Positions 16,780 through 17,220 of a stretch of DNA of 64,000 bases are shown here, piece after piece; position 1 is the first letter of the stretch, and every line of letters starts with the position of its first letter. The notes beneath the pieces were generated by a model. It made no database searches. It saw nothing but the letters and a program-made list of their open reading frames with translations, and was not told the origin of the DNA. Location: assembly GCF_030013595.1 (NCBI RefSeq), contig NZ_CP122768.1; one strand, given 5' to 3'. The stretch is from Escherichia coli. GTDB lineage: Bacteria > Pseudomonadota > Gammaproteobacteria > Enterobacterales > Enterobacteriaceae. A program made the position numbers and the translations under genes.

Positions 16780-17220
16780 TACGTTAACTAAATCAGTTTA
16801 ATGCTGCTGTAAAACCTTTCTGCTTCAGCAATCAATCTGCTATTCGATTTTACTGATGTTACGTTTAACCTTTCCTGAGATTTCGAGTTTTGAAGTTAGC
16901 ATGAGAAAAGTATCTTTACGCTAAATCAACCCGAACTTTCCTGAAGTAATCTGACGTTCTTTTCGATGTGCTTACGACGATTCTGTTAAACGACTTTCTG
17001 GATGTTTTGATAACAATCAGATTTAGGCATTAACGATTCCTGACGTTTTTCTTTTCCGTGTAAGGTCATTGTTTTCGTCATGAGGTTTCTTCTTGCATTG
17101 CGAAAGTGTGATGAACGGTTTTGGTGTTTTGATTCAGATGAAGTTTACGTTATCGATGGTTAATCGTTTTTATGGTGCGTAGTGAAACGTAACATTTTCG
17201 GGATGAGAAAATCGATTCTG
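16780..17220. repeat. Degenerate tandem repeat array (period about 57 bp, at least 5 copies) in an ORF-poor AT-rich region
   Basis: Recurring TACG...ACTTTCCTGA(G/A) units near 16781, 16860, 16918, 16974, 17031 and 17146; boundaries approximate. Confidence 0.4.

What the first reader, a model, noticed from the sequence alone, without database searches (positions are those of the whole stretch)
16780..17220. Degenerate about 57-bp tandem repeat array in a 1.5-kb ORF-free AT-rich region
At least five imperfect units, each beginning TACG and containing ACTTTCCTGA(G/A), recur at roughly 57-bp spacing. Shorter TACTAAG/CGTTAAG repeats precede them at 16660-16760. The array lies upstream of a YagK/YfjJ-like (replication-initiator-like) gene, so it could be an iteron-type binding array, an origin relic or a structured non-coding RNA locus.
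Basis: seen in the sequence. Interest (0 to 1): 0.45.

Follow-up and report, generated by a model that had tools for sequence, protein, structure and literature searches.

The report
Non-coding leader, not a repeat array
The proposed 57-bp repeat array is not there: the interval is a loosely constrained part of a 1.1-kb non-coding stretch in front of a nicking-enzyme gene on an E. coli genomic island, and the real repeats are five 13-bp sites just upstream of it.

Summary
The window is E. coli island DNA next to selC. The 57-bp tandem array at 16780-17220 is not supported. Tandem Repeats Finder finds no such period even at permissive settings, and autocorrelation and Fourier analysis show no peak at 57. 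The five proposed units are no more alike than random pieces of the same stretch (z 0.95). The ACTTTCCTGAA unit is replaced in 7 of 9 related copies.

Three things are real:
- A 1.5-kb ORF-free, 38% GC stretch lies upstream of a YagK/YfjJ ("inovirus Gp2 family") gene. That gene encodes an HUH nickase and is frameshifted in this window.
Their copy number is 1-6 in other E. coli copies, and near-identical repeats (TTTACGTAGTATT) occur upstream of the homologous gene in Proteus/Providencia.
- Just upstream are a family-wide 12-nt motif (16532-16543) and a sigma-70 promoter (16631-16657) homologous to the experimentally detected yagK promoter of K-12.

It has no conserved ORF or RNA/ssDNA structure, and its downstream neighbour is swapped or IS-interrupted in relatives. 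Most likely it is leader or spacer DNA. The iteron or origin idea fits the 13-bp repeats, not the 57-bp units.

The parts
16116..17628 (.). ORF-free, AT-rich stretch (1513 bp, 37.7% GC) between a 376-aa hypothetical gene and the nickase gene. The part from about 16527 onward is shared by all related E. coli copies.
   Evidence: megablast finds it in 1873 of 5426 complete E. coli genomes, up to 8 places per genome. In the listed hits that reach the 3' end of the query it lies next to a gene annotated as 'inovirus Gp2 family protein'.
16532..16543 (+). Family-wide motif A, TAATTCCAGAGT (consensus TAAYWYCAGAGT). Function unknown. It sits about 5-25 nt inside the left edge of the module conserved among E. 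coli copies.
   Evidence: Present at -700..-1 on the gene strand in 27 of 58 distant YagK/YfjJ loci, against 5 matches elsewhere in about 930 kb (126-fold density). Also present upstream of K-12 yagK and yfjJ. 96% pairwise identity among E. coli copies. No consistent hairpin next to it.
16631..16657 (+). Sigma-70 promoter-like site: TTGAGA, 15-nt spacer, TATATA. The spacer contains the family-conserved motif B, TGTCGGTAT (16638-16646).
   Evidence: Motif B lies 59-125 nt downstream of motif A in most of the 32 loci where the pair was found. In K-12 yagK the same motif is the spacer of the promoter TTTAGA-16-TATAAT, detected by genomic SELEX and flagged as H-NS bound (PMC3946193; sequence). 92% identity among E. 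coli copies. The generic promoter scan missed it because the -10 lacks a final T.
16666..16751 (+). Five 13-bp direct repeats starting at 16666, 16679, 16691, 16726 and 16739: TTTACTAAGTATT, TTTACTAAGCATT, TTCAGTAAGTGTT, TTGTAGAAGTGTT, TTCGTTAAGCATT. They are interleaved with three ATACAC words at 16655, 16704 and 16755. This is the real repeat array.
   Evidence: TRF. Copy number is 1-6 and the array region is 136-256 bp long in other E. coli copies. A matrix built only from Proteus/Providencia repeats scores 16666 and 16679 at 12.3 and 11.0 bits; 1 of 2000 shuffles gives two such hits. Same-strand clusters of AG[TC][AG]TT occur upstream in 7 of 59 loci, against 2 elsewhere.
16780..17220 (.). 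It holds no tandem array. It contains scattered TTACG words and one strongly conserved block, and otherwise diverges at about the neutral rate.
   Evidence: Mean pairwise identity is 0.877 here, against 0.90 at third codon positions of the adjacent gene.
17104..17175 (.). Nearly invariant block, GTGATGA..GGTGTTTTGATTCAGATGA..TTTACGTTATCGATGGTTAATCGTTTTTATGG. It straddles the left junction of a replaceable segment. Function unknown.
   Evidence: Alignment. Identity is 0.93 over 17101-17180. The junction with the variant cassette falls at 17141/17142.
17142..17442 (.). Replaceable middle segment. In one widespread variant it is substituted by 1155 bp carrying a 176-aa gene on the minus strand.
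   Evidence: locus L083. In other strains IS66 and IS100 elements are annotated within the stretch between the conserved distal part and the nickase gene.
17221..17539 (+). G+T-rich, A/C-poor stretch. AT skew falls to -0.61 and GC skew rises to +0.44 in and around it. It is less structured than shuffled sequence.
   Evidence: Mean identity is 0.83.
17276..17524 (-). 82-aa minus-strand ORF, annotated as a hypothetical protein in some genomes. It is not a conserved gene.
   Evidence: Intact only in the window-type copies and interrupted by stop codons in the others.
17540..17628 (+). Nearly invariant proximal block with the ribosome-binding site GGAG (17615-17618). No convincing sigma-70 promoter was seen here by eye.
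   Evidence: identity 0.92. Parts of this block (hits starting at window 17349 or 17443) are all that is shared with some other copies (H59-H64).
17629..18359 (+). YagK/YfjJ ('inovirus Gp2 family') gene for a stand-alone HUH nickase. Here it is frameshifted by loss of one A in an A7 run (17842-17847).

Best explanation
Interval 16780-17220 is not a repeat array. It is the middle of a 1.1-kb non-coding stretch (16527-17628) that precedes one E. coli subfamily of YagK/YfjJ genes. These genes encode stand-alone HUH nickases and belong to the backbone of AlpA/P4-integrase-type genomic islands.

The elements with evidence of function lie at the two ends:
- a 12-nt family-wide motif at 16532-16543;
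- a sigma-70 promoter at 16631-16657, homologous to the K-12 yagK promoter;
- five 13-bp direct repeats at 16666-16751, directly downstream of that promoter;
- the invariant translation-start region at 17540-17628.

The most likely mechanism is inferred, not shown. The promoter fires rightward. The 13-bp repeats bind an island-encoded protein that controls this promoter. That protein is either the nickase itself, as Rep proteins do at their iterons, or the AlpA-family protein encoded after the gene in related copies. The transcript then crosses about 970 nt of untranslated, G/U-rich, unstructured leader to reach the nickase gene. It is tolerated rather than tightly selected, and probably contributes AT-rich DNA for H-NS silencing.

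Shown: absence of the 57-bp periodicity, the conserved motifs, the repeats and their copy-number variation, the HUH fold, and near-neutral divergence of the interval.
Inferred: transcription start, who binds the repeats, and the leader function.
For: No 57-bp array.

Conservation pattern:
- No conserved ORF on either strand.
- No conserved RNA structure and no ssDNA hairpins.

Promoter:
- Motif B is the spacer of the yagK promoter TTTAGA-16-TATAAT found by genomic SELEX, with H-NS noted (PMC3946193).
- The same arrangement occurs in 30 of 58 distant loci.
- In the distant loci motif B lies about 140-490 nt from the start codon. In this subfamily it lies about 990 nt away.
- The + strand is G+T-rich. 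From my own knowledge, this is the skew expected for the sense strand of an unconstrained transcribed region.

Repeats.

Candidate binders:
- The nickase is an origin-binding nickase by fold.
- The AlpA-family protein is 70% identical between E. coli and Providencia, while the nickases are about 35% identical and the repeats match at 11 of 13 positions.
Against: - No transcript data are available, so the start site and the long leader are unproven.
- The promoter has a short 15-nt spacer and an imperfect -10.
- In one widespread variant a minus-strand gene sits inside the 'leader', and IS elements interrupt it in others. In those copies the nickase gene cannot depend on the distal promoter, or it is dead.
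- The repeats lie downstream of the promoter in E. coli but upstream of motif A in Proteus/Providencia and Tolumonas. This fits a promoter operator less well than an origin element.
- Only 7 of 59 loci have such clusters.
- Tolumonas has repeats but no AlpA-like gene within 4 kb.
Confidence: 0.5

Rival explanations
1. The distal end of the stretch is the cis-acting origin of the HUH nickase, either a double-strand origin for rolling-circle replication or an oriT-like site. Motif A (16532-16543) would be the nick locus. The 13-bp direct repeats (16666-16751) would be the bind locus, as in the pMV158 RepB origin or parvoviral Rep-binding elements. The promoter merely lies between them, and the reader's interval is spacer.
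For: - The protein has the HUH motif, the catalytic Tyr and the fold of origin-binding nickases.
- Motif A is the most specific conserved element of the family (126-fold) and sits at the left edge of the conserved module.
- The repeats are always on the gene strand. In the loci inspected (E. coli, Proteus/Providencia, Tolumonas) they lie roughly 70-170 nt from motif A, on either side of it.
- Repeats are present in Tolumonas, which has no AlpA gene nearby.
- Increased copy number of an integrase and a Gp2-family gene was reported in gut-evolved E. coli Nissle isolates (bioRxiv 10.1101/364505).
Against: - There is no hairpin at or next to motif A (mean z -0.29 over 21 loci).
- No ssDNA structure is found anywhere in the stretch.
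- No convincing similarity to known nick sites was seen. That comparison was by eye, from memory.
- Repeats are absent from most family loci.
- No excised or replicating form has been shown.
Confidence: 0.25
2. The stretch, including the reader's interval, is essentially functionless filler. It would be AT-rich, H-NS-silenced DNA that accumulates insertions and cassette swaps, while the nickase gene uses an unrecognised proximal promoter.
For: - Divergence of the interval (0.877) and of the G+T-rich part (0.83) is at or below the identity of synonymous sites (0.90).
- IS66 and IS100 insertions and a 1155-bp replacement occur in relatives.
- Many copies of the gene itself are frameshifted or truncated, including the window's.
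- H-NS is noted at the homologous yagK spacer.
Against: - The full-length stretch (at least 80% of the query) is kept in 1277 genomes, and the copies aligned here have no large deletions.
- Blocks 17104-17175 and 17540-17628 are more conserved than synonymous sites.
- The strong strand skew is not explained by drift alone.
- No proximal sigma-70 promoter was seen by eye.
Confidence: 0.2
3. One reading: at least five degenerate 57-bp units form an iteron-type array bound by the YagK/YfjJ protein.
For: TTACG is over-represented (6 against 1.2, p about 0.001), and three consecutive copies are 57 and 56 bp apart. Two weak pairwise similarities exist between proposed units (D3 and D4).
Against: - No periodicity is found by TRF, autocorrelation or Fourier analysis.
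- The units are no more alike than random segments.
- The TTACG at 16916 and the ACTTTCCTGAA word are absent from 7 of 9 related copies.
- The family repeat matrix gives no hit in the interval.
Confidence: 0.03
4. The stretch encodes a structured non-coding RNA, on either strand.
For: It is a long ORF-free conserved stretch. There is one sub-threshold Rfam match to STnc550 on the minus strand at 16790-16867 (18 bits against a gathering score of 48, E 0.06-0.09).
Against: - The STnc550 match covers only the last 35 or so model positions, the model has no base pairs, and the match does not recur in 8 related copies.
- No family reaches gathering score in 18 loci.
- RNAalifold windows give at best z -3.5 with weak energies.
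- Folding energies do not differ from shuffles.
Confidence: 0.03

Closest known systems
Upstream region of K-12 yagK (CP4-6) and yfjJ (CP4-57)
   Same: Same gene family. The same motif A (TAATTGCAGAGT / TAATTTAAGAGT) and motif B are present. In yagK, motif B is the spacer of a sigma-70 promoter detected by genomic SELEX, with H-NS binding noted.
   Different: In K-12 the promoter is about 85-210 nt from the start codon and no 13-bp repeat array is visible. Here about 860 nt of extra non-coding DNA and five repeats lie between promoter and gene. YagK and YfjJ are still listed as uncharacterised (PMC11551758).
Double-strand origin of rolling-circle plasmid pMV158 (RepB nic locus plus bind locus of three 11-bp direct repeats)
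   Different: No hairpin carries the candidate nick sequence. The repeats are about 880 nt from the gene. Neither binding nor nicking has been shown. The protein is not a member of the RepB sequence family.
Parvovirus NS1 / AAV Rep origins (tandem short Rep-binding repeats next to a nick site)
   Different: Sequence identity is 10-15%. There is no helicase domain here and no terminal hairpins. The repeat unit is 13 bp rather than 4 bp.
Intergenic region of Ff/IKe filamentous phages upstream of gene II
   Same: A long non-coding stretch lies directly upstream of a gene annotated as Gp2-like, and the + strand is T-rich.
   Different: The Ff region is built of large hairpins (packaging signal and both origins). 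Here no window folds better than shuffles. There is no match in 50,697 phage records or in IMG/VR.
Tandem direct-repeat sites of excisionase/AlpA/Vis-type winged-helix proteins (lambda Xis X1-X1.5-X2, P4 Vis)
   Same: These are several T-rich direct repeats of 12-13 bp in one orientation. An AlpA-family gene (PF05930) follows the nickase gene in most loci and is 60-76% identical across genera, which matches the near-identity of the repeats. The Xis/Vis sites are recalled from memory.
   Different: Many loci with a highly similar AlpA have no repeat cluster, and Tolumonas has repeats without AlpA nearby. Pseudomonas aeruginosa AlpA, the antiterminator, is described with HTH contact residues at positions 128-142 and a 6-bp binding element (PMC9371919). 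It is therefore larger than the 76-77-aa proteins here and is not a model for them.

Membership tests
Tandem repeat / minisatellite array of about 57 bp | Head-to-tail copies with a period detectable above background | tested here: not met
   TRF at default and permissive settings reports no period of 50-65. Lag 57 is not enriched. There is no Fourier peak.
Tandem repeat / minisatellite array of about 57 bp | Units more similar to each other than to unrelated sequence of the same composition | tested here: not met
   The mean pairwise score is -4.7, against -7.8 +/- 3.3 for random segments of the same stretch (z 0.95, p 0.16).
Tandem repeat / minisatellite array of about 57 bp | Units or their core motif retained in related copies | tested here: not met
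   ACTTTCCTGAA at 16935 and TTACG at 16916 are present in 2 of 9 distinct copies. TTACG at 17242 is present in 1 of 9.
Iteron / Rep-binding direct repeats next to a Rep gene (applied to 16666-16751) | Three or more direct repeats of roughly 10-22 bp in one orientation | tested here: met
   Five 13-mers are spaced 13, 12, 35 and 13 nt apart.
Iteron / Rep-binding direct repeats next to a Rep gene (applied to 16666-16751) | Repeat motif conserved near homologous Rep genes in other hosts | tested here: inconclusive
   Near-identical 13-mers occur in Proteus/Providencia and related 11-mers in Tolumonas/Brenneria. Clusters are found in only 7 of 59 loci.
Iteron / Rep-binding direct repeats next to a Rep gene (applied to 16666-16751) | Bound by the cognate initiator protein | not testable with these tools
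   This needs EMSA or footprinting with the purified nickase and the AlpA-family protein.
Rolling-circle double-strand origin / oriT | Conserved nick sequence, usually in or beside an inverted repeat | tested here: inconclusive
   A highly specific conserved 12-mer exists (motif A), but there is no consistent adjacent hairpin and no ssDNA structure in the stretch. Cleavage is not testable here.
Ff-type intergenic region | Series of large stable hairpins on the packaged strand | tested here: not met
Structured non-coding RNA (Rfam family or new) | Match to a curated model, or conserved structure with compensatory changes | tested here: not met
   No match at gathering score. The only hint is STnc550 at 18 bits against 48, and it does not recur. 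The RNAalifold scan is weak.
Sigma-70 promoter with long 5' leader | -35 and -10 hexamers at workable spacing, conserved in relatives | tested here: met
   TTGAGA-15-TATATA at 16631-16657. It is homologous in position and spacer sequence to the SELEX-detected yagK promoter and 92% conserved. The spacer is short.
Sigma-70 promoter with long 5' leader | Mapped transcription start and a continuous transcript into the gene | not testable with these tools
   No transcriptome data are available. A variant with an antisense gene inside the leader argues against this being universal.
HUH endonuclease superfamily (the adjacent gene) | HUH metal-binding motif, catalytic Tyr motif and the Rep nuclease fold | tested here: met

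The most novel reading that the evidence does not exclude
Motif A and the 13-bp direct repeats could together form the previously undescribed origin (nick locus plus bind locus) of the stand-alone YagK/YfjJ HUH nickases. Through it, AlpA/P4-integrase-type genomic islands would replicate or be mobilised after excision. In the E. coli subfamily, the long G-rich, unstructured transcript running from the adjacent promoter could add an R-loop or primer-type or other RNA-level control.
Probability: 0.15. Interest if true: 0.6.

Novelty: new member of a known kind. Interest (0 to 1): 0.25.

Why it matters
The titled feature, a 57-bp array, does not exist, so it carries no weight by itself.

What lies beside it has modest value. 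YagK/YfjJ proteins are still uncharacterised 'y-ome' genes (PMC11551758). They are core genes of a very common class of islands: 1873 of 5426 complete E. coli genomes carry this subfamily, with up to 8 places per genome. Related islands in Pseudomonas are reported as transferable by jumbo phages (bioRxiv 10.1101/2024.08.29.610337).

This work gives three concrete starting points for experiments on what these nickases act on and how the islands are controlled:
- the proteins have the fold of origin-binding HUH nickases;
- their genes carry a family-wide 12-nt motif and a conserved promoter;
- in several genera they carry same-strand 13-bp direct repeats.

Tried and rejected
- **57-bp periodicity.** Tested with TRF at default and permissive settings, autocorrelation, Fourier analysis of T-runs and AA/TT, unit-against-unit alignment, and motif enrichment. 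All negative.
- **Helical (10-11 bp) phasing of A/T tracts as a sign of curved DNA.** No peak.
- **Minus-strand 82-aa ORF annotated in some genomes.** Not conserved.
- **Small + strand ORFs or leader peptides.** Frames and lengths are not conserved, and changes are mostly non-synonymous.
- **Decayed homologue of the 176-aa protein of the variant cassette.** tblastn finds no similarity.
- **Ff-like hairpins or a single-strand origin.** Rejected.
- **Hairpin next to motif A.** Rejected.
- **Rfam.** The PhotoRC-I hit lies inside the coding region. The bxd_5, miRNA and STnc550 hits are sub-threshold and taken as chance.
- **sigma-E promoter reading of motif A (AACTT-N16-TCTGA).** By eye, it fits only the L073-L077 group.
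- **DnaA-box reading of the ATACAC words (TTATACACA, 8 of 9).** Noted by eye but not tested for enrichment, because the words are part of duplicated units.
- **Pseudomonas AlpA antitermination as a model.** That AlpA is a larger protein with a different binding element.
- **Presence in phages or viral contigs.** None found.
- **A 17-hit cluster of the repeat matrix in Buttiauxella (L077).** It is an unrelated 9-bp microsatellite.
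Full report
**Where we are.** Window 16400-17650 is 100% identical to E. coli strain 2009C-3133 and four other strains. In that genome the region lies in an island beside yicL/nlpA. The island carries a CbtA/YeeU toxin-antitoxin pair, RadC-like, antirestriction and GTPase genes on the minus strand. [quoted passage not shown] Over 14000-22000 the window differs from that strain only by one missing A in an A7 run (17842-17847). This deletion frameshifts the Gp2-family gene.

**Checking the observation.**
- The ORF-free, AT-rich stretch is real: 16116-17628, 1513 bp, 37.7% GC, T 36.7%.
- The 57-bp array is not. TRF finds only a period 12-13 array at 16663-16716. With permissive parameters it finds periods 12/24/36 over 16655-16782 and a small period-20 array at 17038-17091, but nothing near 57.
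- Base autocorrelation shows no excess at lag 57. The best lag in the interval is 114, z 3.1, reached by 13% of shuffles. The only significant lags are 24 and 25 when the short repeats are included.
- Fourier analysis of T-runs and AA/TT shows no peak at 57 and no helical phasing.
Their mean score is no better than that of random segments of the same non-coding stretch (z 0.95, p 0.16).
- ACTTTCCTGAR is not enriched (33 matches against 28.6 expected).
It is over-represented (6 against 1.2, p about 0.001), but 9 of 1024 pentamers are comparably extreme. Only two spacings are near 57. Only four of the six sites persist in at least 7 of 9 related copies.

**Relatives in E. coli.**
- The stretch from about 16527 to the start codon is found in 1873 of 5426 complete E. 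coli genomes, with up to 8 places per genome, at 60-100% identity. In the listed hits that reach the 3' end of the query it sits next to a Gp2-family gene. The gene to its left varies.
- It is absent from 50,697 phage records and from IMG/VR. Only four plasmid records, all E. coli, carry it.
- I aligned ten copies, nine of them distinct.
- Third codon positions of the adjacent gene are 0.90 identical in the same copies. It looks conserved only because the elements are young.

**What the interval is not.**
- It is not coding. The 82-aa minus-strand ORF annotated in some genomes is broken by stops in most copies. Small + strand ORFs are not conserved in frame or length.
- It is not a structured RNA. 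No Rfam family approaches its threshold in the window or in 18 related loci. A weak STnc550 hit (18 bits against 48) covers only 35 or so unpaired model positions and does not recur in other copies. RNAalifold windows over nine copies give weak energies and at best z -3.5.
- It is not an Ff-like origin of hairpins. With DNA parameters no 150-nt window in the interval folds better than shuffles, and 17250-17500 folds worse (z +1.6 to +2.1).
- The stretch tolerates rearrangement. In one common variant 17142-17442 is replaced by 1155 bp carrying a 176-aa minus-strand gene. IS66 and IS100 sit inside the stretch in other strains.

**The neighbouring gene.**
- The intact 243-aa protein matches Pfam YagK_YfjJ_C (1.5e-33) and REP_ORF2-G2P (2e-7).
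- In an alignment of 44 family members, H101, H103 (the HUH motif KHYHVILLL), Y213 and K216 (YxxK) are invariant.
- The 243-aa subfamily appears confined to E. coli. The next relatives are about 40% identical. Many copies are truncated or frameshifted.
- YagK and YfjJ are still listed as uncharacterised (PMC11551758). Gp2-like proteins are reported as core genes of intY/alpA islands in Pseudomonas (bioRxiv 10.1101/2024.08.29.610337).

**What is really there: family-wide elements at the distal end.** I fetched 70 loci encoding distant relatives from one genome per species. Their upstream ORF-free gap has a median of 460 bp, so the 1.1-1.6 kb of the E. coli subfamily is exceptional. Three features recur.
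1. **Motif A**, TAAYWYCAGAGT (window 16532-16543). It occurs at -700..-1 on the gene strand in 27 of 58 loci, against 5 matches elsewhere in about 930 kb (126-fold). No hairpin accompanies it.
2. **Motif B**, TGTYGGWWT followed by TAnTATA (window 16638-16657), mostly 59-125 nt downstream of A. K-12 yagK and yfjJ carry both motifs. In yagK, motif B is the spacer of the promoter TTTAGA-16-TATAAT that Ishihama's group found by genomic SELEX, with H-NS noted in the same spacer (PMC3946193). By homology the window has TTGAGA (16631-16636), a 15-nt spacer and TATATA (16652-16657).
3. **Short direct repeats.** TRF on the upstream kilobase of the distant loci finds period 11-13 arrays with related units: TTTTACTAAGTAT in E. 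coli, TTACGTAGCATT and ACGTAGTATTTT in Providencia/Proteus, AAGTGTTTTTC in Tolumonas and AGTGTTTTTCA in Brenneria.
   - A weight matrix built only from the Proteus/Providencia units picks window 16666 and 16679 as its two best hits (12.3 and 11.0 bits). Only 1 of 2000 shuffles gives two such hits. It finds nothing in 16780-17220.
   - The window has five sites, at 16666, 16679, 16691, 16726 and 16739. Other E. coli copies have 1-6.
   - Same-strand clusters of the core AG[TC][AG]TT occur upstream in 7 of 59 loci, against 2 elsewhere.
They, not the 57-bp units, are the repeat array of this locus.

**How it most likely works.**
- Shown: the promoter homology, the repeats and their variability, the HUH fold, and the near-neutral middle.
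- Inferred: the promoter fires rightward from about 16660. The 13-bp repeats directly downstream bind an island protein that controls it. About 970 nt of G/U-rich, unstructured, untranslated RNA precede the nickase gene.
- The strong + strand G+T skew (AT skew down to -0.61, GC skew up to +0.44) is what an unconstrained sense strand would show. That statement rests on my own knowledge.
- Two proteins are candidate binders. One is the nickase itself, since Rep/NS1 domains read tandem repeats. The other is the AlpA-family protein (PF05930) encoded right after the gene in most loci. It is 70% identical between E. coli and Providencia while the nickases are about 35% identical, in line with repeats that match at 11 of 13 positions.
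- Against AlpA: many loci with a similar AlpA lack repeats, and Tolumonas has repeats without AlpA nearby.
- Against a pure operator role: the repeats lie downstream of the promoter in E. coli but upstream of motif A elsewhere. In the loci inspected they stay roughly 70-170 nt from motif A either way. This fits the rival origin model (nick locus plus bind locus) better.
- A reported copy-number increase of an integrase and a Gp2-family gene in gut-evolved Nissle isolates is a weak hint of replication.
- Against the long-leader model: the variant with an antisense gene inside the leader, and the IS insertions.

**Verdict.** The interval is leader or spacer DNA within an uncharacterised but ordinary-looking control region of an HUH nickase gene. 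The iteron or origin idea deserves testing on 16532-16751 instead.

Noticed in passing
window 17842-17847: The Gp2-family gene is frameshifted by loss of one A in an A7 run. This is the only difference from strain 2009C-3133 over 14000-22000. It could be a homopolymer sequencing error, decay or slippage. Many database copies of this gene are truncated, and the 214-aa forms look like frameshift products.
   Followed up: partly
window 16747, 17095, 17338, 17544: GCATTGC occurs four times on the + strand of the leader, against about 0.04 expected under an order-2 Markov model (p about 1e-7). The word is mostly not kept in diverged copies. Unexplained.
   Followed up: partly
window 17525-17539: A second, imperfect motif-A-like word (TTAATCAGAGAGTTG) lies about 100 nt before the start codon. 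It is followed by TGCCGGAT, which resembles motif B. This may be a degenerate ancestral copy of the A-B unit.
   Followed up: no
window 17142-17442; locus L083 4156-5309: In a widespread variant this part of the leader is swapped for 1155 bp carrying a 176-aa minus-strand gene with no Pfam match. Both junctions lie at ATTCA-containing words (GATTCAGATGAAG | ... | CATTCATGCTG).
   Followed up: partly
loci L084 (about 4045-6800) and L085 (about 4430-6600): IS66 and IS100 elements are annotated inside the homologous non-coding stretch in other E. coli strains.
   Followed up: partly
window 23979-24545 and 23712-23760: A second, 189-aa YagK/YfjJ gene lies 6 kb downstream. Upstream of it is T-rich sequence with GTATTTTACAGTATTT-like words and a CAACAGAGTGAA word near 23466. 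It is followed (in L001) by a 191-aa gene and the AlpA-family gene.
   Followed up: no
loci L016-L080, about +630 to +960 from the nickase start: In most of the distant loci an AlpA-family gene directly follows the YagK/YfjJ gene. It is far better conserved (mostly 60-76% identity to the E. coli protein) than the nickase (30-40%), which suggests a conserved gene pair.
   Followed up: partly
window 16790-16867, minus strand: There is a sub-threshold Rfam hit to enterobacterial sRNA STnc550 (18.1 bits, gathering score 48, E 0.06-0.09). It covers only the 3' 35 or so model positions and was not seen in 8 related copies.
   Followed up: yes
window 17038-17091: Permissive TRF reports a period-20 array of 2.8 copies. 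Two relatives (L003, L004) lack exactly 20 nt here, which is consistent with slippage.
   Followed up: no
loci L073-L077, motif A region: In this group motif A (TAACTTCAGAGT) is followed 16-17 nt later by TCTGAT. Together they resemble the sigma-E promoter consensus GAACTT-N16-TCTGA. This is not seen in other groups.
   Followed up: no
locus L077 820-975: An unrelated perfect 9-bp microsatellite (about 17 copies of GTTAGTTTT) lies 3 kb upstream of the Buttiauxella YagK/YfjJ gene.
   Followed up: yes
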